In this document: piece by piece, positions 1 through 12,999 of the stretch
Layout of the letters: the number at the start of each line of letters is the position of its first letter
How positions within the stretch are numbered: the first letter of the stretch is position 1
From: a virus
Strand: one strand, 5' to 3'
DNA: 15,174 bases
Virus genome (UHGV): UHGV-1738898
Program-made: the position numbers and the translations under genes
Notes under the pieces: model-generated
The model's database searches: none
Seen by the model: the letters and a program-made list of their open reading frames with translations, nothing else
What the model was told of the DNA's origin: nothing

Positions 1-111
1 CTGAGGCAGCACCTGGCACGGCTGGGACGGAAGTCGCTGTCGTTCTCAAAATCGGTGGAGCTGCATGACAAAGTCATCGGGCATTATCTGAACATAAAAC
101 ACTATCAATAA
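1..111 (+). other. 3' end of an ORF entering from upstream of the window (frame 1, stop TAA 109-111); possibly the displaced 5' part of the gpE-like capsid gene
   Basis: Frame 1 is open from position 1 to the TAA at 109-111 ([36 protein letters not shown]). It aligns weakly, in register, with lambda gpE residues about 29-50 (R..S..F...G). The downstream E-like ORF is in frame 3. Confidence 0.3.
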
Positions 112-170
112 GTTGGAGTCATTACCCACGAGATGAGGGATACGAATCAAAAACAATTCGTCCAGGTTAT

Positions 171-965
171 ATGAAGCCGAAAAGCAGCATTGATCCAAAT
201 AAGTTAGCTGTGCGCCCTGCTGGTGTGTCACCTGAGCAATACAATGCTTTTGGGGCGCGTAATATTAAAGTTAAACAGGCGATTGTAAATCAGGCTAAAG
301 CTATTCGTGCACGTATTGAATGGCTTGCTGTTCAGGCAATCACAACGGGGAAAAATATCATTGAGGGCGATGGTATTGAACGTTATGAGCTGGACTGGAA
401 TATAAAACCACAAAATATCATCACTCAGTCTGGCGGTACTGAGTGGTCAGGTAAGGATAAAGAAACTTTTGATCCAAATGATGATATTGAGAGCTACGCA
501 GAATTTAGTGAGGGCGTCACTAATATCATCATTATGGGTGGTAATGTATGGAAGAAATACCGTTCATTCAGAGCGATAAAAGAGGCTTTGGATACCCGTC
601 GTGGTTCTAATTCCGAACTGGAAACGGCCCTTAAAGACCTTGGTGATTCGGTGAGTTTTAAAGGGTATATGGGCGATGTTGCGATTGTTGTTTACAGCGG
701 GCGTTATACCGACGAGGACGGAACAGAAAAACATTTCCTTGATCCTGATTTGATGGTGCTTGGCAATACGGCTCTTCAGGGGATTGTCGCCTATGGCGGT
801 ATTCAGGATCCGGAGCTAATCCGAATGGGGCTGACTAAAGCCGAACTTGCACCGAAAAACTATATTGTGCCTGGTGATCCGGCTATTGAATATGTGCAGA
901 CACATTCAGCACCACAGCCAATACCGGCCCGCATCAATCGTTTTGTTACCGTTCGCATTGGCTAA
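171..965 (+). CDS. Major capsid protein homolog (lambda gpE family), divergent; 5'-incomplete or frameshifted copy covering the equivalent of gpE residues ~78-341
   Basis: The 264-aa ORF aligns along its whole length with the lambda E protein encoded at 6034-7059 in this window (shared blocks ITQSGGTEWS..KDK.T.DP.DDIE.YA, LDTRRGS.SELETA.KDLG, GDVAIVVYSG, MVLGNT, IQD). Similarity continues upstream of the ATG in the same frame (PGYMKPK vs lambda PGYVKPK) until an in-frame TGA at 66-68. No convincing Shine-Dalgarno precedes ATG 171. Confidence 0.65.
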   Translation: MKPKSSIDPNKLAVRPAGVSPEQYNAFGARNIKVKQAIVNQAKAIRARIEWLAVQAITTGKNIIEGDGIERYELDWNIKPQNIITQSGGTEWSGKDKETFDPNDDIESYAEFSEGVTNIIIMGGNVWKKYRSFRAIKEALDTRRGSNSELETALKDLGDSVSFKGYMGDVAIVVYSGRYTDEDGTEKHFLDPDLMVLGNTALQGIVAYGGIQDPELIRMGLTKAELAPKNYIVPGDPAIEYVQTHSAPQPIPARINRFVTVRIG

Positions 966-974
966 GGGGGAGCA

Positions 975-1316
975 ATGGCTACTCATTACACTGAACTCAT
1001 GGCTGGCACTGAAGCACTGGTGACTACGCTGGGGATATTTTCAGCTAATAAAGGGGTAATTCCTGCATTTACGCCACTGATGCAGGAAGATGCAACAGGT
1101 GCACTGGTGGTATGGGATGGTTCGAGCGTAGGTAAAGCGGTTTATGTTTCCGCTGTACAAATCGACACCGCGAAAAAAATACAGGCTCAGGTCTATAAGA
1201 CAGGTGTCTTAAATGTTGATGCTCTGAACTGGCCTGAGTCTGTTAAAGAACTGTCAGTAAAGGTTGCAGCGTTTGTTGGCTCAGGTATTTCTGTTCAGCC
1301 GCTGGCTCGTGTGTAA
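975..1316 (+). CDS. Head decoration protein homolog (lambda gpD family), divergent
   Basis: The 113-aa ORF has a strong RBS (GGGGGAG, 966-972). It aligns with lambda D encoded at 5647-5979 (THY near the N-terminus; PAFTPLMQEDATGALVVWDG vs [20 protein letters not shown]; VYKTG...WPE vs FYKSG...WPE; AF.G..IS near the C-terminus). Confidence 0.7.
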   Translation: MATHYTELMAGTEALVTTLGIFSANKGVIPAFTPLMQEDATGALVVWDGSSVGKAVYVSAVQIDTAKKIQAQVYKTGVLNVDALNWPESVKELSVKVAAFVGSGISVQPLARV

Positions 1317-1327
1317 AGGGGGATACA

Positions 1328-1711
1328 ATGCAGAATGATTACAATGACCTTAAGCCAATTGCCGAAATGATGTACCCGAATCCAGCTGTAGAGGAATTAA
1401 AAGCTATCGCTGACAAAATGTGTTTAAGCGAGCGCCTTGTTGATATGAATCAGGTGATGGAAATTACAACCCTGAGTCGTCGTACACTGCTAAACCTTGA
1501 GGCTAGTGGAGAGTTCCCGGAGCGTGTGCAGGTTACGGAAGGGCGTAAGGCCTGGTATTTAAGTGAAGTGATCGACTGGATAAATAATATTCCTCGCGCT
1601 TCTGAATATTGCCGCGTACCTGTCCCAAAAAAGCCAGATGCGGCGCTATGCCTCAAGATTGAGCGTGTACGCCGCAATGCACGGGATGGTCGCTATAAGC
1701 TGATTGGTTGA
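1328..1711 (+). CDS. AlpA/excisionase-family winged-HTH DNA-binding protein with N- and C-terminal extensions
   Basis: The 127-aa ORF has a strong RBS (AGGGGGA). Its central segment LVDMNQVMEITTLSRRTLLNLEASGEFPERVQVTEGRKAWYLSEVIDWI matches the AlpA family pattern (LSRxTIYxLxxxGxFPxPVxLGxRxVxWxxSEIxxWI). Confidence 0.7.
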   Translation: MQNDYNDLKPIAEMMYPNPAVEELKAIADKMCLSERLVDMNQVMEITTLSRRTLLNLEASGEFPERVQVTEGRKAWYLSEVIDWINNIPRASEYCRVPVPKKPDAALCLKIERVRRNARDGRYKLIG

Positions 1712-1736
1712 TGAAATTAGGGCCCGCTCTGGCTGG

Positions 1737-1801
1737 CGGGTCCTTTCCGGTGATCCGGTAGGCTACGGGGCGGCGACCTCGCGGGTTTTCGCTATTTATG
1801 A
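1737..1801. other. cos: Lambda-type cohesive-end site (cosQ/cosN region); the 12-nt cohesive-end sequence GGGCGGCGACCT lies at 1768-1779
   Basis: CGGGTCCTTTCCGGTGATCCG...TACGGGGCGGCGACCTCGCGGGTTTTCGCTATTTATGA matches my recollection of the lambda right-end/left-end junction (ACGGGTCCTTTCCGGTGATCCGACAGGTTACG | GGGCGGCGACCTCGCGGGTTTTCGCTATTTATGAAAATTTTCC). There are a few mismatches just left of cosN and complete divergence after ...TATTTATGA. It sits in the 200-bp gap between the AlpA-like gene and the Nu1-like gene, 134 bp upstream of the latter. Confidence 0.8.
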
Positions 1802-1912
1802 GCCTTTTTCGGGTGCTGGTGGTGGTTTTGTTGTTCGCTCTATCTCTATGAATAAAAAGGAAAAGATAAAGCCAATACACCAACCTGAAACATTACTTAA
1901 GTGGGGATATTG
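1802..1912. promoter_or_regulatory. Putative divergent cosB (small-terminase binding region) between cosN and the Nu1-like gene
   Basis: This is the position equivalent to lambda cosB (R3-I1-R2-R1), but the sequence is unrelated to the lambda R sites (CGTTTCC-type). It contains short repeats (GGTGGTGG, TTGTTGTT, CTCTATCTCTAT) and an A-rich tract. The call rests on position only. Confidence 0.3.
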
Positions 1913-2455
1913 ATGAAATCGCACCTGATGAACAAAAAAAACATGGCGCAAAGCTGCCGTGTAAGTGCGACAGCGTTCGACAAGTGGGGAGTGACTCCCG
2001 TTGAACGTAAAGGCCGCGAGGCGTTTTATGATGTTGCCAGCGTAATAGACAATCGGGTTAGCAATGCAATTAACCAGATTACAGACGACAAAGGCGAGAT
2101 TGATGATGATGAACTCCTACGAGTCAGGATCAGATTGCTGACAGCACAGGCAGAGGCGCAGGAGCTTAAAAACGAGCGCGAACGCGGCGACGTTATTGAT
2201 ACAGCGTTTTGTATATACGTGCTTTCAAAATTGGCGAGTCAGATTTCTTCAATCATGGACAGCCTGCCGCTTGCCATGACAAGGAAGTTTCCCGACATGA
2301 AGCCGTCTATGCTGGATGGACTGAAAAAAGAAGTTATCAGAGCCTGTAACGCATGCGCAAAACTTGACGAAAACATACCGCTGATGCTGTCCGATTATCT
2401 GATGGAAACTGCCGGAAACGTACCGGATAAGTTGCAGCCGAATAAAGATAAGTAA
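1913..2455 (+). CDS. Terminase small subunit, lambda Nu1 family; N-terminal DNA-binding domain divergent, C-terminal half conserved
   Basis: ATG 1913 is preceded by GGGGA (1903-1907); the ORF track shows an upstream GTG at 1901. The C-terminal region RLLTAQAEAQELKNERERGDVIDTAFCIYVLSKLASQISSIMDSLPLAMTRKFPD closely matches lambda Nu1 (RLTRAQADAQELKNARDSAEVVETAFCTFVLSRIAGEIASILDGLPLSVQRRFPE, from memory). The N-terminus is only loosely similar (NKK, YD.A.VI). Confidence 0.8.
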   Translation: MKSHLMNKKNMAQSCRVSATAFDKWGVTPVERKGREAFYDVASVIDNRVSNAINQITDDKGEIDDDELLRVRIRLLTAQAEAQELKNERERGDVIDTAFCIYVLSKLASQISSIMDSLPLAMTRKFPDMKPSMLDGLKKEVIRACNACAKLDENIPLMLSDYLMETAGNVPDKLQPNKDK

Positions 2456-2466
2456 CGTAGTACGCT

Positions 2467-2748
2467 ATGACTGAATCCGAAATACTGCGATTAATCCGCC
2501 GTGCTTGTGGAATCAGCAAGCAGCATGACGAACAGGCCACGCAGCCGGACAGCGTGACCGCAGATAATTATGTGCGTGTAGTGGCTGAGGTGATGCGCCG
2601 TGACGGTATTGAGCTTAACGGCGTGGATATGCGCAACATACGAACAAGAGTCCTTGAGTTGCTGGCATATCGTCGCCGTTCTCAACAACGGAGGGAGAGC
2701 GCGAAAAATACTTACCAGTGGAAGAAGCCGGAACGATTGCGGCGGTAA
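2467..2748 (+). CDS. Hypothetical 93-aa protein with an arginine/lysine-rich C-terminus; sits where the large-terminase gene A would start in lambda
   Basis: Intact ORF 12 bp after the Nu1-like stop, with a weak RBS. It has no recognisable similarity to the lambda gpA N-terminus or any family I can name. C-terminal tail RRRSQQRRESAKNTYQWKKPERLRR. Confidence 0.4.
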   Translation: MTESEILRLIRRACGISKQHDEQATQPDSVTADNYVRVVAEVMRRDGIELNGVDMRNIRTRVLELLAYRRRSQQRRESAKNTYQWKKPERLRR

Positions 2749-2763
2749 CTTGCTGATATTCCC

Positions 2764-2788
2764 GATAACGCAAAATTGCGCTGGCTGA
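2764..2788. repeat. 25-bp direct repeat, copy 1 (GATAACGCAAAATTGCGCTGGCTGA), containing an inverted repeat CGCAA-aa-TTGCG
   Basis: Matches 2950-2974 at 22 of 25 positions. A second small dyad TTGCA-t-TGCAA lies at 2793-2803. Confidence 0.6.
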
Positions 2789-2949
2789 CTTGTTGCATTG
2801 CAAAAAGTTAAGCAGGAAGGCACGGCCTGTAAGATGGGATGCAGTAAGTAGTTCAAGGCTACCTTGTGCTGGCACGCACAGTTAAGCCGTCGGTGCTGGA
2901 TATCCCCCACTGGGGGAAAAGCTGGCTACATCCCTCACATCTGAGGACT

Positions 2950-2974
2950 GATAACGCGACATTGCGCTGGCTGG
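2950..2974. repeat. 25-bp direct repeat, copy 2 (GATAACGCGACATTGCGCTGGCTGG)
   Basis: Matches 2764-2788 at 22 of 25 positions. It is followed at 2979-2992 by the inverted repeat GTGCAA-aa-TTGCAC. Confidence 0.6.
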
Positions 2975-2999
2975 CAAAGTGCAAAATTGCACGATGGCC

Positions 3000-3161
3000 T
3001 AACCCATTGATTATTTCGAAAACCTGCAATGCAGGAAATCGGGGAAGTAAGCCTAAGCTATTGATTGTTTCGAAAACCCCCATTGGGGGATGTCGGGAAA
3101 GTAAGACTAACCCATTGATTCTTCCACAATCCTCAATTTGAGGAGGCCGGAACGTCTACAT
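3000..3161. repeat. Three tandem ~54-bp units, each carrying a perfect 13-bp 6-1-6 dyad at the same phase (3023-3035 CCTGCAATGCAGG; 3077-3089 CCCCCATTGGGGG; 3131-3143 CCTCAATTTGAGG)
   Basis: Units 1 and 2 (3000-3053, 3054-3107) are about 78% identical by my count. Unit 3 starts with the same 13 nt (TAACCCATTGATT) and then degenerates, but keeps a perfect dyad exactly 54 bp after the previous one. Arm substitutions between dyads are mirrored so symmetry is preserved. A related dyad CCCCCACTGGGGG lies at 2904-2916. Confidence 0.7.
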
Positions 3162-3428
3162 AGCTGCATCGCCGTAATGATGATTCAGCCCACCAGCCAA
3201 ATCAGCACAGCAACGACAGAATAGCCCGACACAGAAAAACCACGAATATGGGGTTTTTGTTATGACATGGTCATGATGACCACTCATACAAAACAGGTAA
3301 AGCCCACCAGCCTGATTAAAGGTTAACCGGAAAAAAGCCAGGTATCCAATCTCGATATGGGGATCCCTATATCGACATTAACGCCCACTAAAACTGTGCA
3401 TATATGCATAGAAAAAGCATCCACCAGC

Positions 3429-3520
3429 TTTATGACGGATGCCGCTCATCTTATAAATAATCGTGTATTGCAGTGTGTATTGCGACTCCTTTAAACGATA
3501 GGTCTGAGCATTCGTAATGT
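3429..3520 (+). promoter_or_regulatory. AT-rich region with sigma70-like promoter candidates upstream of the truncated B fragment
   Basis: Candidate 1: TTTATG (3429-3434), 17-bp spacer, TATAAA (3452-3457). Candidate 2: TTAAAC (3491-3496), 18-bp spacer, TAATGT (3515-3520). Hexamer matching by eye only. Confidence 0.2.
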
Positions 3521-3563
3521 ACTGTTTTTAAATTTTATTTTTTCCTGTCTTTTCATAAAGGCG

Positions 3564-4337
3564 ATGTATGCCGCCACCATTGAAAGTGAGCTGGATACGC
3601 AGTCAGCGATGGATTTTATTCTGGGCGCGAACAGTCAGGAGCAGCGGGAAAGGCTGACGGGCTGGATTGGTGAAATTGCCGCGTATTACGCTGCAGCACC
3701 GGTCCGTCTGGGAGGCGCAAAAGTGCCGCACCTGATGCCGGGGGACTCACTGAACCTGCAGACGGCTCAGGACACGGATAACGGCTACTCCGTGTTTGAG
3801 CAGTCACTGTTGCGGTATATCGCTGCCGGGCTGGGTGTCTCGTATGAGCAGCTTTCCCGGAATTACGCCCAGATGAGCTACTCCACGGCACGGGCCAGTG
3901 CGAACGAGTCGTGGGCGTACTTTATGGGGCGGCGAAAATTCGTCGCATCCCGTCAGGCGAGCCAGATGTTTCTGTGCTGGCTGGAAGAGGCCATCGTTCG
4001 CCGCGTGGTGACGTTACCTTCAAAAGCGCGCTTCAGCTTTCAGGAAGCCCGCAGTGCCTGGGGGAACTGCGACTGGATAGGCTCCGGTCGTATGGCCATC
4101 GATGGTCTGAAAGAAGTTCAGGAAGCGGTGATGCTGATAGAAGCCGGACTGAGCACCTACGAGAAAGAGTGCGCGAAACGCGGTGACGACTATCAGGAAA
4201 TTTTTGCCCAGCAGGTCCGTGAAACGATGGAGCGCCGTGCAACCGGTCTTAAACCGCCCGCCTGGGCGGCTGCGGCATTTGAATCCGGACTGCGACAATC
4301 AACAGAGGAGGAGAAGAGTGACAGCAGAGCTGCGTAA
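3564..4337 (+). pseudogene. B: Portal protein gpB, 3' fragment only (C-terminal 257 codons, equivalent to lambda B residues ~277-533)
   Basis: The ORF (MYAATIESELDTQSAMDFILGANSQEQRERLTGWIGEIAAYYAAAP...AAAFESGLRQSTEEEKSDSRAA) matches the C-terminal half of lambda B as I recall it. An in-frame stop lies at 3492-3494. DNA upstream of ~3555 is AT-rich, non-coding and unlike lambda. The first approximately 276 codons of B are absent from the window. Confidence 0.85.
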
Positions 4338-5646: not shown

Positions 5647-5979
5647 ATGACGAGCAAAGAAACCTTTACCCATTACCAGCCGCTGGGCAACAGTGACCCG
5701 GCTCATACCGCAACCGCGCCCGGCGGATTGAGTGCGAAAGCGCCTGCAATGACCCCGCTGATGCTGGACACCTCCACCCGTAAGCTGGTTGCGTGGGATG
5801 GCACCACCGACGGTGCTGCCGTTGGCATTCTTGCAGTTGCTGCTGACCAGACCAGCACCACACTGACGTTCTACAAGTCCGGCACGTTCCGTTATGAGGA
5901 TGTGCTCTGGCCGGAGGCTGCCAGCGACGAGACGAAAAAACGGACCGCGTTTGCCGGAACGGCAATCAGCATCGTTTAA
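5647..5979 (+). CDS. D: Head decoration protein gpD
   Basis: [42 protein letters not shown]...FAGTAISIV matches lambda D (110 aa). The ORF-track start at 5641 adds two upstream in-frame codons. Confidence 0.9.
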
Positions 5980-6000
5980 CTTTACCCTTCATCACTAAAG

Positions 6001-6020
6001 GCCGCCTGTGCGGCTTTTTT
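6001..6020 (+). terminator. GC stem-loop followed by a T-run in the D-E intergenic region (terminator-like hairpin)
   Basis: GCCGC (6001-6005), loop CTGT, GCGGC (6010-6014), then TTTTTT (6015-6020). The stem is short, so it may act as an RNA stability or processing element rather than an efficient terminator. Confidence 0.3.
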
Positions 6021-6033
6021 ACGGGATTTTTTT

Positions 6034-7059
6034 ATGTCGATGTACACAACCGCCCAGCTGCTGGCGGCAAATGAGCAGAAATTTAAGTTTGATCCGCTGT
6101 TTCTGCGTCTCTTTTTCCGTGAGAGCTATCCCTTCACTACGGAGAAAGTCTATCTCTCACAAATTCCGGGACTGGTAAACATGGCGCTGTACGTTTCGCC
6201 GATTGTTTCCGGTGAGGTTATCCGTTCCCGTGGCGGCTCCACCTCTGAATTTACGCCGGGATATGTCAAACCCAAGCATGAAGTGAATCCGCAGATGACC
6301 CTGCGTCGCCTGCCGGATGAAGATCCGCAGAATCTGGCGGACCCGGCTTACCGCCGCCGTCGCATCATCATGCAGAACATGCGTGACGAAGAGCTGGCCA
6401 TTGCTCAGGTCGAAGAGATGCAGGCAGTTTCTGCCGTGCTCAAGGGCAAATACACCATGACCGGTGAAGCCTTCGATCCGGTTGAGGTGGATATGGGCCG
6501 CAGTGCGGCGAACAACATCACGCAGTCCGGCGGCACGGAGTGGAGCAAGCGTGACAAGTCCACGTATGACCCGACCGACGATATCGAAGCCTACGCGCTG
6601 AACGCCAGCGGCGTGGTGAATATCATCGTGTTTGACCCGAAAGGCTGGGCGCTGTTCCGTTCCTTCAAAGCCGTCAGGGAGAAGCTGGATACCCGTCGCG
6701 GCTCTCATTCCGAACTGGAGACAGCGGTAAAAGACCTGGGCAAAGCGGTGTCTTATAAGGGAATGTATGGCGATGTGGCCATCGTCGTGTATTCCGGACA
6801 GTACGTGGAAAACGGTGTCAAAAAGAACTTCCTGCCGGACAACACGATGGTGCTGGGTAACACTCATGCACGCGGTCTGCGCACCTATGGCTGTATTCAG
6901 GATGCGGATGCATTGAGTGAGGGTATTAATGCGTCTCCCCGTTATCCGAAAAACTGGAAGACATCCGGCGATCCGGCGCGAGAGTTCACCATGATTCAGT
7001 CAGCACCGCTGATGCTGCTGGCTGATCCTGATGAGTTCGTGTCCGTTCAACTGGCGTAA
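6034..7059 (+). CDS. E: Major capsid protein gpE
   Basis: The 341-aa ORF beginning MSMYTTAQLLAANEQKFKFDPLFLRLFFRESYPFTTEKVYLSQIPGLVNMALYVSPIVSGEVIRSRGG... matches lambda E essentially end to end. Confidence 0.95.
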   Translation: MSMYTTAQLLAANEQKFKFDPLFLRLFFRESYPFTTEKVYLSQIPGLVNMALYVSPIVSGEVIRSRGGSTSEFTPGYVKPKHEVNPQMTLRRLPDEDPQNLADPAYRRRRIIMQNMRDEELAIAQVEEMQAVSAVLKGKYTMTGEAFDPVEVDMGRSAANNITQSGGTEWSKRDKSTYDPTDDIEAYALNASGVVNIIVFDPKGWALFRSFKAVREKLDTRRGSHSELETAVKDLGKAVSYKGMYGDVAIVVYSGQYVENGVKKNFLPDNTMVLGNTHARGLRTYGCIQDADALSEGINASPRYPKNWKTSGDPAREFTMIQSAPLMLLADPDEFVSVQLA

Positions 7060-10445: not shown

Positions 10446-12999
10446 ACCGGTAGGCGATCTGGTCGTTGATTTAAGTCTGGATGCGGCCAGATTTGACGAG
10501 CAGATGGCCAGAGTCAGGCGTCATTTTTCCGGTACGGAAAGTGATGCGAAAAAAACAGCGGCAGTCGTTGAACAGTCGCTGAGCCGACAGGCGCTGGCTG
10601 CACAGAAAGCGGGGATTTCCGTCGGGCAGTATAAAGCCGCCATGCGTATGCTGCCTGCACAGTTCACCGACGTGGCCACGCAGCTTGCAGGCGGGCAAAG
10701 TCCGTGGCTGATCCTGCTGCAACAGGGGGGGCAGGTGAAGGACTCCTTCGGCGGGATGATCCCCATGTTCAGGGGGCTTGCCGGTGCGATCACCCTGCCG
10801 ATGGTGGGGGCCACCTCGCTGGCGGTGGCGACCGGTGCGCTGGCGTATGCCTGGTATCAGGGCAACTCAACCCTGTCCGATTTCAACAAAACGCTGGTCC
10901 TTTCCGGCAATCAGGCGGGACTGACGGCAGATCGTATGCTGGTCCTGTCCAGAGCCGGGCAGGCGGCAGGGCTGATGTTTAACCAGACCAGCGAGTCACT
11001 CAGCGCACTGGTTAAGGCGGGGGTAAGCGGTGAGGCTCAGATTGCGTCCATCAGCCAGAGTGTGGCTCGTTTCTCCTCTGCATCCGGCGTGGAGGTGGAC
11101 AAGGTCGCTGAAGCCTTCGGGAAGCTGACCACAGACCCGACGTCGGGGCTGACGGCGATGGCACGCCAGTTCCATAACGTGACGGCGGAGCAGATTGCGT
11201 ATGTTGCTCAGTTGCAGCGTTCCGGCGATGAAGCCGGGGCATTGCAGGCGGCGAACGAGGCCGCAACGAAAGGGTTTGATGACCAGACCCGCCGCCTGAA
11301 AGAGAACATGGGCACGCTGGAGACCTGGGCAGACAGGACTGCGCGGGCCTTCAAATCCATGTGGGATGCGGTGCTGGATATTGGTCGTCCTGATACCGCG
11401 CAGGAGATGCTGATTAAGGCAGAGGCTGCGTTTAAGAAAGCAGACGACATCTGGAATCTGCGCAAGGATGATTATTTTGTTAACGATGAAGCGCGGGCGC
11501 GTTACTGGGATGATCGTGAAAAGGCCCGTCTTGCGCTTGAAGCCGCCCGAAAGAAGGCTGAGCAGCAGACTCAACAGGACAAAAATGCGCAGCAGCAGAG
11601 CGATACCGAAGCGTCACGGCTGAAATATACCGAAGAGGCGCAGAAGGCTTACAAACGGCTGCAGACGCCGCTGGAGAAATATACCGCCCGTCAGGAAGAA
11701 CTGAACAAGGCACTGAAAGACGGGAAAATCCTGCAGGCGGATTACAACACGCTGATGGCGGCGGCGAAAAAGGATTATGAAGCGACGCTGAAAAAGCCGA
11801 AACAGTCCGGCGTGAAGGTGTCTGCGGGCGATCGTCAGGAAGACAGTGCTCATGCTGCCCTGCTGACGCTTCAGGCAGAACTCCGGACGCTGGAGAAGCA
11901 TGCCGGAGCGAATGAGAAAATCAGCCAGCAGCGCCGGGATTTGTGGAAGGCAGAAAGTCAGTTCGCGGTACTGGAGGAGGCGGCACAACGTCGCCAGCTG
12001 TCCGCACAGGAGAAATCCCTGCTGGCGCATAAAGATGAGACGCTGGAGTACAAACGCCAGCTGGCTGCACTTGGCGACAAGGTTACGTATCAGGAGCGCC
12101 TGAACGCGCTGGCGCAGCAGGCGGATAAATTCGCACAGCAGCAACGGGCAAAACGGGCCGCCATTGATGCGAAAAGCCGGGGGCTGACTGACCGGCAGGC
12201 AGAACGGGAAGCCACGGAACAGCGCCTGAAGGAACAGTATGGCGATAATCCGCTGGCGCTGAATAACGTCATGTCAGAGCAGAAAAAGACCTGGGCGGCT
12301 AAAGACCAGCTTCGCGGGAGCTGGATGGCAGGCCTGAAGTCCGGCTGGAGTGAGTGGGAAGAGAGCGCCACGGACAGTATGTCGCAGGTAAAAAGTGCAG
12401 CCACGCAGACCTTTGATGGTATTGCACAGAATATGGCAGCGATGCTGACCGGCAGTGAGCAGAACTGGCGCAGCTTCACCCGTTCCGTGCTGTCCATGAT
12501 GACAGAAATTCTGCTTAAGCAGGCAATGGTGGGGATTGTCGGGAGTATCGGCAGCGCCATTGGCGGGGCTGTTGGTGGCGGCGCATCCGCGTCAGGCGGT
12601 ACAGCCATTCAGGCCGCTGCGGCGAAATTCCATTTTGCAACCGGAGGATTCACAGGAACCGGCGGTAAATATGAGCCAGCGGGGATTGTTCATCGTGGTG
12701 AATTTGTCTTCACGAAGGAGGCAACCAGCCGGATTGGCGTGGGGAATCTTTACCGGCTGATGCGCGGCTATGCCACCGGCGGTTATGTCGGTACACCGGG
12801 CAGCATGGCAGACAGCCGGTCGCAGGCGTCCGGGACGTTTGAGCAGAATAACCATGTGGTGATTAACAACGACGGCACGAACGGGCAGATAGGTCCGGCT
12901 GCTCTGAAGGCAGTGTATGACATGGCCCGCAAGGGTGCCCGTGATGAAATCCAGGCACAGATGCGCGATGGTGGTCTGTTCTCCGGAGGTGGACGATGA
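10438..12999 (+). CDS. H: Tail tape measure protein gpH
   Basis: The 853-aa ORF MAEPVGDLVVDLSLDAARFDEQMARVRRHFSGTESDAKKTAAVVEQ... matches lambda H in length and sequence. Its start overlaps the end of T. Confidence 0.95.
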   Translation: MAEPVGDLVVDLSLDAARFDEQMARVRRHFSGTESDAKKTAAVVEQSLSRQALAAQKAGISVGQYKAAMRMLPAQFTDVATQLAGGQSPWLILLQQGGQVKDSFGGMIPMFRGLAGAITLPMVGATSLAVATGALAYAWYQGNSTLSDFNKTLVLSGNQAGLTADRMLVLSRAGQAAGLMFNQTSESLSALVKAGVSGEAQIASISQSVARFSSASGVEVDKVAEAFGKLTTDPTSGLTAMARQFHNVTAEQIAYVAQLQRSGDEAGALQAANEAATKGFDDQTRRLKENMGTLETWADRTARAFKSMWDAVLDIGRPDTAQEMLIKAEAAFKKADDIWNLRKDDYFVNDEARARYWDDREKARLALEAARKKAEQQTQQDKNAQQQSDTEASRLKYTEEAQKAYKRLQTPLEKYTARQEELNKALKDGKILQADYNTLMAAAKKDYEATLKKPKQSGVKVSAGDRQEDSAHAALLTLQAELRTLEKHAGANEKISQQRRDLWKAESQFAVLEEAAQRRQLSAQEKSLLAHKDETLEYKRQLAALGDKVTYQERLNALAQQADKFAQQQRAKRAAIDAKSRGLTDRQAEREATEQRLKEQYGDNPLALNNVMSEQKKTWAAKDQLRGSWMAGLKSGWSEWEESATDSMSQVKSAATQTFDGIAQNMAAMLTGSEQNWRSFTRSVLSMMTEILLKQAMVGIVGSIGSAIGGAVGGGASASGGTAIQAAAAKFHFATGGFTGTGGKYEPAGIVHRGEFVFTKEATSRIGVGNLYRLMRGYATGGYVGTPGSMADSRSQASGTFEQNNHVVINNDGTNGQIGPAALKAVYDMARKGARDEIQAQMRDGGLFSGGGR

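What the first reader, a model, noticed from the sequence alone, without database searches (positions are those of the whole stretch)
1328..1711. AlpA-family regulator immediately upstream of cos, larger than typical family members
AlpA/Xis-type wHTH proteins are usually about 60-80 aa and sit next to integrases. This one is 127 aa, with about 40 extra N-terminal and 45 extra C-terminal residues, and is transcribed toward the cos site 26 bp downstream. It could be the transcriptional activator of the element (analogous to satellite delta/AlpA activators), an excision or recombination directionality factor, or could participate at cos. All three are hypotheses.
Basis: partly seen in the sequence, partly recalled or inferred. 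Interest (0 to 1): 0.45.

Follow-up and report, generated by a model that had tools for sequence, protein, structure and literature searches.

The report
Second AlpA-type regulator in satellite capsid cassette
The gene is real: a 127-residue AlpA-family DNA-binding protein that ends the capsid gene cassette of a phage satellite lodged inside a lambda-like prophage. It most likely regulates that cassette rather than excision or DNA packaging, and its function has never been tested.

Summary
Window 1328-1711 (+) encodes a 127-aa protein with a Phage_AlpA winged-helix core (residues 36-85) and conserved N- and C-terminal extensions. Its stop codon lies 26 nt before cosQ and 56 nt before cosN.

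The element is a known kind: a helper-embedded PICI satellite sitting in the portal gene of a lambda-like prophage. Here IS1 has cut it off at its left side.

This is not the satellite's canonical AlpA. Intact relatives carry a separate short AlpA or HTH_17 gene beside the integrase.

The 127-aa paralog is always the third gene of a fixed triad: E-like capsid, D-like decoration, then this protein. That held in 79 of 80 viral contigs and across more than 10 enterobacterial genera. The triad occurs with three different integrase and regulator types and with three different cassettes to the right of cos.

Upstream of every such triad sit phased TTGCAC-type direct repeats (four in most elements, 10-bp period) and, in most, an extended -10 element. 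This motif is absent from the alternative EcCICFT073-type capsid module, which also lacks the protein.

Best reading (about 0.45): it is the cassette's own transcription regulator and binds those repeats. This is inferred, not shown. Roles in excision or at cos are disfavoured. In this window the candidate operator has been lost to IS1.

The parts
1..127 (.). End of an IS1 copy. It truncates the satellite, removing the capsid promoter and operator and the first ~68 capsid codons.
   Evidence: 98-100% identical to IS1 in many records. Relatives align only from base 127 onward.
171..965 (+). 3' part (264 codons) of the satellite's lambda-E-like major capsid gene; first gene of the cassette.
   Evidence: Pfam Phage_cap_E 1.2e-32, profile positions 74-327. 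The full 346-aa gene is present in L001 at 19799-20839.
975..1316 (+). Lambda-D-like head decoration gene; second gene of the cassette.
   Evidence: Pfam HDPD 3.7e-14 and phrog_49.
1318..1324 (+). Shine-Dalgarno sequence AGGGGGA of the target gene.
   Evidence: Read directly from the sequence.
1328..1711 (+). Target gene: a 127-aa AlpA-family paralog. Residues 1-35 form an N-terminal two-helix extension, residues 36-88 the winged-HTH core, and residues 89-127 a Pro-rich linker plus a basic C-terminal helix.
1719..1744 (+). GC-rich hairpin directly after the stop codon (dG -18.5 kcal/mol). Its 3' arm overlaps cosQ. Likely the 3' end or terminator of the cassette.
   Evidence: ViennaRNA fold. 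Relatives have a hairpin of different sequence at the same place.
1738..1744 (+). cosQ (GGGTCCT).
   Evidence: Conserved in most of the relatives read and in EcCICFT073. Start of the homology to the lambda cos region.
1768..1779 (+). cosN cohesive-end 12-mer GGGCGGCGACCT.
   Evidence: Exact pattern match; lambda cos homology.
1815..1835 (+). Motif GCTGGTGGTGGTTTTGTTGTT at the cosB position. Specific to satellites that carry their own Nu1-like TerS.
   Evidence: Conserved in L003, L005 and L015. Replaced by a lambda-type R3-I1-R2-R1 arrangement where TerS is absent.
1913..2455 (+). Satellite Nu1-like small terminase. A right-of-cos cassette that is present or absent independently of the target gene.
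   Evidence: Pfam Phage_Nu1 3.5e-24 and phrog_57. Present in only 42 of 79 type-1 loci.
2467..2748 (+). 93-aa hypothetical protein (phrog_1561). It travels with the right-of-cos cassettes.
3465..3484 (+). attR-arm 'doubled motif' GTATTGCAGTGTGTATTGCG of the helper-embedded PICI integrase clade. It is not the target protein's candidate site.
   Evidence: It also occurs in elements that lack the protein. Its position, about 80 bp before the portal fragment resumes, matches PMC10111431.
3564..4337 (+). C-terminal fragment of the helper prophage's lambda-type portal gene, which is the satellite's integration target.
   Evidence: Pfam Phage_portal_2, profile positions 238-354. The split portal gene is annotated in L001.

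Best explanation
The gene encodes a second, late-module paralog of the PICI regulator AlpA. It is the last gene of a self-contained capsid cassette, laid out as: terminator, phased TTGCAC-type direct repeats (four in most elements, 10-bp period, about -73 to -38), an extended -10 promoter in most, E-like capsid, D-like decoration, this protein, hairpin, cosQ.

Proposed mechanism:
- Several copies bind head-to-tail to the phased repeats through the winged-helix core.
- The N-terminal helical hairpin and/or the basic C-terminal helix mediate cooperativity or contact with RNA polymerase.
- The protein thereby sets transcription of its own capsid-decoration operon. I lean towards activation (positive feedback, late in the satellite cycle) because the repeats sit upstream of, and abut, a promoter that lacks a -35 element.

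What is shown: the family, the fold, the conserved architecture, the fixed synteny, and the exclusive co-occurrence of the protein with the repeat array.

What is inferred: that this protein is what binds the array, the sign of regulation, and the roles of the extensions.

In this window the cassette is decapitated by IS1, so the gene is separated from its presumed operator and promoter.
For: **Family and fold**
- Pfam Phage_AlpA at 35.8 bits.
- An AF2 model with mean pLDDT 81.7 shows helices 4-15 and 19-33, a wHTH at 36-88, and a helix at 105-119.

**Fixed triad**
- Capsid, HDPD, then this protein is found in every relative read, across more than 10 genera and in helper-embedded, fis-site and other PICIs.
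- 79 of 80 IMG/VR loci with this capsid type carry the protein.
- 0 of 80 loci with the EcCICFT073-type capsid carry it.

**Candidate operator**
- The repeats and the -10 element are conserved upstream of the capsid ATG in all 9 diverse elements.
- The triple-hexamer pattern occurs once per type-1 locus, always at -97 on the + strand (81 hits in 669 kb; one locus has two overlapping matches in the same array). It occurs 0 times in 563 kb of type-2 loci.
- It is the only TTRYAY-N4-TTRYAY site in 43 kb of helper plus satellite.

**The array tracks this protein, not the int-zone regulator**
- The array is the same whether the short regulator is AlpA (L001, L003, L006, L008) or HTH_17 with a different integrase (L004, L005, L011).
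- The one element whose recognition helix changes from SRRTLLNLE to SRQTILDME (L013) has changed hexamers: TTAGAC, TTAGAC, TTGGGT, TTGTGC.

**Selection and boundaries**
- The core is under very strong purifying selection (pN/pS 0.05-0.1 while synonymous sites are near saturation), as expected for a protein matched to a fixed DNA site.
- Hairpins flank the cassette on both sides.
Against: - No binding or expression data exist.
- The protein-motif association could be plain linkage, because both belong to one module that is inherited as a block.
- The covariation rests on a single diverged lineage.
- The short AlpA, a helper-phage protein or a host factor could be what binds the repeats.
- An extended -10 promoter can fire without an activator, so the protein could equally be a negative autoregulator.
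- L007 keeps an SRRTLLDME helix but has a degenerate array.
- TTGCAY triplets at 10-bp spacing are not unique at the scale of a viral database: more than 120 hits, of which only 5 are satellites of this type.
Confidence: 0.45

Rival explanations
1. It acts at cos as a packaging accessory. It would bind near cosQ or cosN on satellite concatemers to favour or time terminase cutting, working with the helper or satellite TerS in the way Rpp does.
For: - The gene always ends 26-90 nt before cosQ.
- The very conserved core parallels the very conserved cosQ-cosN sequence.
- Two metagenome contigs end just after the gene.
Against: - EcCICFT073-type satellites have the same cosQ, cosN and spacing but an unrelated 137-aa protein in this slot. 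The model element of that type is packaged without the protein (PMC6739421).
- The protein is kept unchanged whether the right side of cos carries a satellite TerS with GGTGGTGGT, or a lambda-type cosB with no TerS.
- There is no sequence similarity to Nu1 or Rpp.
- No repeated hexamers occur in 1712-1900.
- Lying next to cos is expected for any last gene of a module, because cosN is a recombination boundary.
Confidence: 0.12
2. It is an excisionase or recombination directionality factor for the satellite, or a helper of the short AlpA at attL and attR.
For: - The PHROG label is 'excisionase and transcriptional regulator'.
- The att arms carry GTATTGCA repeats that share the TTGCA core with the capsid-promoter repeats.
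Against: - Every element already has a small AlpA or HTH_17 gene beside int.
- The protein (core ~95% identical) occurs with a 413-aa helper-embedded-clade integrase, with 484-486-aa integrases and with a 407-aa fis-site integrase. A directionality factor should co-vary with its integrase and att arms.
- The doubled att motif occurs in elements that lack the protein.
- The gene is at least 1.7 kb from the att core.
Confidence: 0.1
3. It regulates targets outside the cassette, either helper-phage or host genes. Examples would be interference with helper late expression, or control of the genes downstream of cos.
For: - Satellite DNA-binding proteins such as PLE CapR repress helper genes (cited in PMC10111431).
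- Only part of one helper genome was scanned here.
Against: - No paired hexamers were found in 32 kb of helper late region or in the 15-kb window.
- The protein's partner that stays invariant is the cassette, not a particular helper. Helpers range from lambda-like to a phage with a P2-type tail module.
Confidence: 0.15
4. The real product is a short classical AlpA that starts at an internal Met (Met40 or Met44). The extensions would then not be translated, or would carry no function.
For: Internal ATGs exist. phrog_2790 aligns only from residue 11. A 114-aa variant lacks the first 13 residues.
Against: - Invariant or near-invariant residues lie at positions 24-39, upstream of Met40.
- There are no indels or frame breaks across five genera, and pN/pS is below 0.5 in most comparisons.
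- A strong SD sequence precedes the first ATG, and the gap to the upstream gene is only 9-15 nt in all loci.
- The C-terminal tail is conserved even in the 50%-identity relatives P0099 and P0100.
Confidence: 0.03

Closest known systems
PICI AlpA (for example EcCICFT073 AlpA), the master activator of Gram-negative PICIs
   Same: Same Pfam family (PF05930) and wHTH fold. Encoded by the same kind of satellite. Probably a transcription regulator that acts on its own operon.
   Different: - 32% identity over 53 residues to the element's own short AlpA.
- A different recognition helix: SRRTLLNLE against ANSTRWKME.
- 127 aa with conserved N- and C-terminal extensions.
- Sits at the end of the capsid operon next to cos, not beside int.
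- Co-exists with the short AlpA or with an HTH_17 regulator.
AlpA- and Xis-type excisionases (GIsul2 Xis 8c3t, RdfS 8dgl, P4 Vis, TorI)
   Different: Not linked to any one integrase or att site. About twice the size. Only the core aligns (TM-score normalised to the query of 0.39 or less).
BldC, a small MerR-like protein of Streptomyces
   Different: No sequence relationship (13% identity). Different organism and regulon. Binding by this protein is untested.
RppA/RppC and lambda Nu1 (TerS) DNA-binding domains
   Different: Those proteins are encoded downstream of cosN and bind cosB and/or TerS. This protein is encoded upstream of cosQ, has no sequence similarity to them, and is independent of which cosB or TerS cassette is present.
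Helper-embedded PICIs (Tommasini, Mageeney and Williams 2023, PMC10111431)
   Same: The element in the window matches that description. It is co-oriented inside a lambda-type late gene (portal B), carries the doubled att motif about 80 bp from the crossover, and shows the integration, Bro, replication and late zone order in the intact relative L001.
   Different: That paper files all Phage_AlpA and HTH_17 genes under 'Integration' and does not single out the late-zone paralog. The copy in this window is truncated by IS1.

Membership tests
Pfam PF05930 Phage_AlpA | Profile score above the curated gathering threshold | tested here: met
   35.8 bits against a cut-off of 21, over residues 36-85 covering profile positions 2-51 of 51. 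All 92 homologs that retain the core carry PF05930.
Pfam PF05930 Phage_AlpA | MerR- or excisionase-like winged helix-turn-helix fold | tested here: met
Classical AlpA/Xis (short, integrase-linked) | Small single-domain protein of about 60-90 aa | tested here: not met
   127 aa, with extensions that are conserved and under purifying selection.
Classical AlpA/Xis (short, integrase-linked) | Gene adjacent to, and co-varying with, a tyrosine integrase | tested here: not met
   About 7.2 kb downstream of int in L001. A different gene occupies the position beside int. The protein is found with three integrase types.
PICI master activator AlpA | Required for induction, excision and replication, and activates its own promoter | not testable with these tools
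   This needs genetics. The literature tested only the int-adjacent AlpA of EcCICFT073, an element that has no homolog of this protein.
Rpp / Nu1 cos-specificity proteins | Sequence homology to Nu1 or Rpp, and a gene position downstream of cosN | tested here: not met
   No Phage_Nu1 hit for this protein. No BLASTP alignment between the EcCICFT073 proteins and the window genes in the corresponding slots (hyp137 against this protein, RppA against the window TerS). The gene lies upstream of cosQ.
Rpp / Nu1 cos-specificity proteins | Presence correlates with a matching cosB type | tested here: not met
   The same protein occurs with a GGTGGTGGT cosB plus TerS, and with a lambda-type cosB and no TerS.
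Helper-embedded PICI (the element, not the protein) | Integrated in, and co-oriented with, a prophage late gene, with the doubled att motif about 81 bp from the crossover | tested here: met
   The portal gene is split in L001. The portal C-terminal fragment is at 3564 in the window. The doubled motif is at 3465-3484. The expected spacing comes from PMC10111431.
Direct-repeat-binding small wHTH regulators (BldC-like mode) | A cognate array of phased direct repeats next to a promoter | tested here: met
   Phased hexamers at a 10-bp period upstream of a -10 element (four in most of the 9 diverse elements, fewer or degenerate in L006, L007 and L008); exclusive to loci that encode the protein. The array lies outside this window.
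Direct-repeat-binding small wHTH regulators (BldC-like mode) | Demonstrated cooperative binding to the repeats | not testable with these tools
   Needs EMSA, footprinting or a structure.

The most novel reading that the evidence does not exclude
The protein is a cos-proximal DNA-end factor. It would bind the cosQ-side (right) end of satellite DNA and modulate terminase cutting or cos skipping. Together with the satellite's own capsid and decoration proteins, it would form a packaging-specificity system distinct from both the Rpp and the TerS-swap strategies. The evidence disfavours this reading but does not exclude it, because no binding data exist and the gene abuts cosQ in every relative examined.
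Probability: 0.1. Interest if true: 0.65.

Novelty: new variant of a known kind. Interest (0 to 1): 0.4.

Why it matters
Gram-negative PICIs are currently described with a single regulator, AlpA, beside int. How they control the capsid and decoration genes that many of them carry is unknown, as is the purpose of those genes.

This analysis shows that one of the two common capsid modules comes as a closed cassette with its own AlpA-type paralog and a precise candidate operator. That points to a two-tier arrangement of an early AlpA and a late AlpA.

It also gives a direct handle for switching the satellite capsid genes on or off in order to find out what they do. The handle consists of one protein and a 40-bp site.

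The analysis also separates the protein from the cos-specificity systems it sits next to (Rpp and satellite TerS). That matters for annotation and for engineering PICI-based delivery vectors.

The impact is that of a specialist lead. It is not a new principle.

Tried and rejected
- **Internal start codon.** Rejected on conservation, pN/pS and gene packing.
- **Homology to EcCICFT073 proteins.** There is none, either for the 137-aa protein in the same slot against this protein or for RppA against the window's TerS.
- **First AF2 run.** With a 20-sequence alignment it gave a poor model (pLDDT 61.7, no wing). It was redone with 137 sequences.
- **Fold searches.** The PDB and BFVD searches matched only the core; nothing matched the whole architecture. 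The afdb50 library was not available.
- **NCBIfam.** No model matches.
- **Rfam.** Nothing was found in 1-4000.
- **Simple promoter and terminator scan of 900-3600.** Nothing useful near the gene.
- **Genome-contig scan.** Only 4 loci came back. Diversity was obtained instead through the look-up of encoding contigs and IMG/VR.
- **Alignment-based capsid query.** It returned only near-identical E. coli copies. These were useful for counting but not for diversity.
- **Collection-wide scan for the TTGCAY triplet.** It is not specific at that scale: more than 120 hits, 5 of them satellites of this type.
- **Search for the source genome or the IS1 junction.** No complete E. coli genome carries it, so it is unknown whether the left part of the satellite survives upstream of IS1.
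- **att 'doubled motif' as this protein's site.** Rejected, because the motif occurs in elements that lack the protein.

Full report
**1. What is in the window**

- Bases 1-127 are the end of an IS1 copy.
- From base 127 the window is 99-100% identical to a block found in 65 complete E. coli genomes.
- In the intact relative E. coli N66 (locus L001) this block is the right part of an ~11-kb satellite inserted inside the portal gene of a lambda-like prophage. The portal N-terminal fragment, the satellite and the portal C-terminal fragment follow one another, all co-oriented.
- The satellite's gene order is: integrase, 85-aa AlpA, BRO-N, Icd-like, DUF4222, primase, SSB, E-like capsid, D-like decoration, the target gene, cos, Nu1-like TerS, a 93-aa protein, ~800 bp of non-coding DNA, attR.
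- This is the 'helper-embedded PICI' described by Tommasini, Mageeney and Williams (PMC10111431).
- In the window, IS1 has removed everything to the left of capsid codon ~68.
- Downstream of 3564 the window continues with ordinary lambda-like head and tail genes.

**2. The observation**

- The ORF at 1328-1711 (+) encodes 127 aa. It has a strong Shine-Dalgarno sequence (AGGGGGA) and lies 11 nt after the decoration gene's stop.
- It is a bona fide Phage_AlpA member: 35.8 bits against a cut-off of 21, residues 36-85; phrog_2790 at 1e-49; and E 2e-9 to the solved AlpA-family GIsul2 excisionase 8c3t.
- The stop codon is 26 nt before cosQ (1738) and 56 nt before the cosN 12-mer (1768-1779).
- A stable hairpin at 1719-1744 (-18.5 kcal/mol) fills the gap, and its 3' arm is cosQ itself. 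Relatives have hairpins of different sequence in the same place.

**3. The size is real**

- A search of 5.8 billion proteins found 98 clusters. Nearly all full-length members are exactly 127 aa, and they come from more than 10 enterobacterial genera.
- The alignment shows invariant or near-invariant residues well upstream of the internal Met40. It also shows a conserved C-terminal tail, NNIPR-S-x-C-VPVP-KPD-LCLK-ER-RR.
- Across five genera there are no indels.
- pN/pS is 0.05-0.1 in the core. In both extensions it is about 0.25-0.5 among the Enterobacteriaceae pairs, and it approaches 1 in pairs with the divergent Buttiauxella copy.
- A 114-aa E. coli variant lacks the first 13 codons but still starts 9 nt after the decoration gene.
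- In 1.84 billion representative proteins, the full architecture is shared by only three 50%-identity clusters: P0001, P0099 (112 aa) and P0100 (117 aa). Everything else matches only residues ~33-92.
- With a 137-sequence alignment, AF2 gives a model of mean pLDDT 81.7. It has two N-terminal helices (4-15, 19-33), a classical wHTH (strand, helices 40-47 and 51-60, wing 67-77, helix 78-86; pLDDT 94-96), a Pro-rich linker, and a basic helix at 105-119.

**4. It is a second paralog, not the satellite's AlpA**

- Every intact relative has another small regulator directly after int. This is either an AlpA of 71-85 aa or an HTH_17 protein of 68-72 aa.
- The window protein is 32% identical to its own element's short AlpA over 53 residues.
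- The recognition helices differ: SRRTLLNLE in this protein against ANSTRWKME in the short AlpA.

**5. What it travels with**

- In all loci read the gene is the third member of the triad capsid(E) - decoration(D) - this protein, and it is followed by a hairpin and cosQ. The loci come from Escherichia, Kosakonia, Kluyvera, Superficieibacter, Cedecea, Buttiauxella and metagenomes, and cover helper-embedded, fis-site and other integration sites.
- Of 80 IMG/VR loci with this capsid type, 79 have the protein and none has the EcCICFT073 137-aa protein.
- Of 80 loci with the EcCICFT073 capsid type, none has the protein. Most have the unrelated 137-aa protein in the same slot.
- What lies to the right of cosN varies freely. 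It can be a satellite Nu1-like TerS with a GCTGGTGGTGGT motif at the cosB position (as here), RppA, or a lambda-type R3-I1-R2-R1 cosB with no TerS at all. In the last case the 127-aa protein, hairpin and cosQ on the left are unchanged.
- So the protein belongs to the capsid module, and cosN is a module boundary.

**6. A candidate operator**

- Aligning the 300 bp upstream of the capsid ATG from nine diverse elements revealed a shared layout. It consists of a terminator-like hairpin, then phased direct repeats of TTGCAC-like hexamers at a 10-bp period, then a -10 element. Most elements have four repeats (consensus TTRYAC, for example TTATAC-N4-TTGCAC-N4-TTGCAC-N4-TTGCAC).
- The -10 element lies about 25 nt after the last repeat. 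It is an extended -10 (TGnTAnnAT) in six of the nine elements and a -10-like hexamer in the rest. There is no -35 element.
- This places the repeats at roughly -73 to -38.
- A three-hexamer pattern occurs once per type-1 locus, always on the + strand at -97 from the ATG. That is 81 hits in 669 kb, with one locus carrying two overlapping matches in the same array. It never occurs in 563 kb of EcCICFT073-type loci.
- It is the only paired-hexamer site in the 43 kb of helper plus satellite in L001.
- The array stays the same whether the int-zone regulator is AlpA or HTH_17.
- The array differs in the one lineage (L013) whose 127-aa-type protein has R53Q and other changes in the recognition helix.
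- The att-arm 'doubled motif' (GTATTGCA-N4-GTATTGCR) shares a TTGCA core. It also occurs in elements that lack the protein, so it belongs to the integrase clade.

**7. Interpretation**

The most economical model is as follows.

- The protein is the cassette's own regulator.
- It binds the phased repeats as a head-to-tail array. BldC, one of the fold matches, is known to do this; that statement rests on my own knowledge.
- Because the array lies upstream of and abuts a promoter that lacks a -35 element, I favour activation, that is, a late positive-feedback step downstream of the int-zone regulator.
- Negative autoregulation cannot be excluded.
- The extensions are candidates for oligomerisation or for contact with RNA polymerase.

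None of this is demonstrated, and the association could reflect linkage within one module. I give the model 0.45.

The rivals fare as follows.

- An excisionase role conflicts with the protein's indifference to integrase type.
- A cos role conflicts with its absence from satellites that have the same cos, and with its independence from the cosB and TerS cassettes.
- Neither rival can be formally excluded without binding data.

**8. State of this particular copy**

- The window contains no paired hexamers, because the promoter and operator region was lost to IS1.
- No complete E. coli genome carries this IS1 junction. It is therefore unknown whether the rest of the satellite survives upstream.
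- The gene itself is intact and is 99-100% identical to the copies in intact elements.

**9. Novelty**

- The element type, the family and the neighbouring systems (Rpp, cos-PICIs) are all published.
- The late-zone AlpA paralog, its conserved extensions, its exclusive link to one capsid module and the repeat array are not discussed in the papers read.
- Public annotation calls it only 'helix-turn-helix' or 'AlpA family transcriptional regulator'.
- I rate it a new variant of a known kind, of moderate interest.

Noticed in passing
window 1-127 (and the capsid remnant at 171-965): An IS1 end abuts the satellite capsid gene at about codon 68. The satellite's left part, including the capsid promoter and repeat array, is missing from the window. 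No complete E. coli genome in the collection has this junction.
   Followed up: partly
window 2997-3158: Three tandem 54-nt repeats (80% and 61% identical to the first copy). Each holds a short palindrome (CCTGCAATGCAGG, CCCCCATTGGGGG, CCTCAATTTGAGG). They lie in the ~800-bp non-coding stretch between the 93-aa gene and attR. There is no Rfam match and their function is unknown.
   Followed up: partly
window 2764-2787 and 2950-2973: A 24-nt direct repeat, GATAACGCAAAATTGCGCTGGCTG and GATAACGCGACATTGCGCTGGCTG, with copies 186 bp apart in the same non-coding stretch.
   Followed up: no
window 1815-1835; compare L002 2609-2621: At the cosB position, satellites with their own Nu1-like TerS carry GCTGGTGGTGGT(T/G)TTGTTGTT. 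EcCICFT073, which uses RppA, carries the reverse-complement-like CACCACCACCAC at almost the same distance from cosN. This could mean a shared recognition element used in opposite orientation.
   Followed up: partly
L024, L028 and L086 (about 5790-6100), compared with L015 and window 1712-1900: Identical copies of the 127-aa gene, hairpin and cosQ are followed by one of two arrangements. One is the lambda cosN with a satellite TerS cassette. The other is a variant cosN (GGGCGTCAGGCG) with a full lambda-type R3-I1-R2-R1 cosB and no TerS. The recombination breakpoint is therefore at cosN.
   Followed up: partly
L002 1-2497 (EcCICFT073): The alternative capsid module has an extra 68-aa gene before the capsid gene, a PerC-family regulator gene just upstream, and an unrelated 137-aa protein with no Pfam hit in the slot before cos. 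Each module type may therefore carry its own regulator.
   Followed up: partly
L006 10681-11829 (-); L008-L010 about 11779-12541 (-): The accessory slot between cos and attR holds candidate anti-phage genes in some relatives: a TIR-domain/DUF3298 protein in Cedecea and an Abi_C protein in E. coli.
   Followed up: no
L011 and L012 (contig ends): Two metagenome contigs stop 48-90 bp after the homologous gene, which is at or near cos. This fits either an assembly break at a cos shared with the helper, or a linear DNA end.
   Followed up: no
L001 18561-18741: Iteron-like repeats (AAAAGCCATCTACC...) lie directly after the primase gene. They are probably the satellite ori and are distinct from the capsid-promoter repeats.
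   Followed up: no
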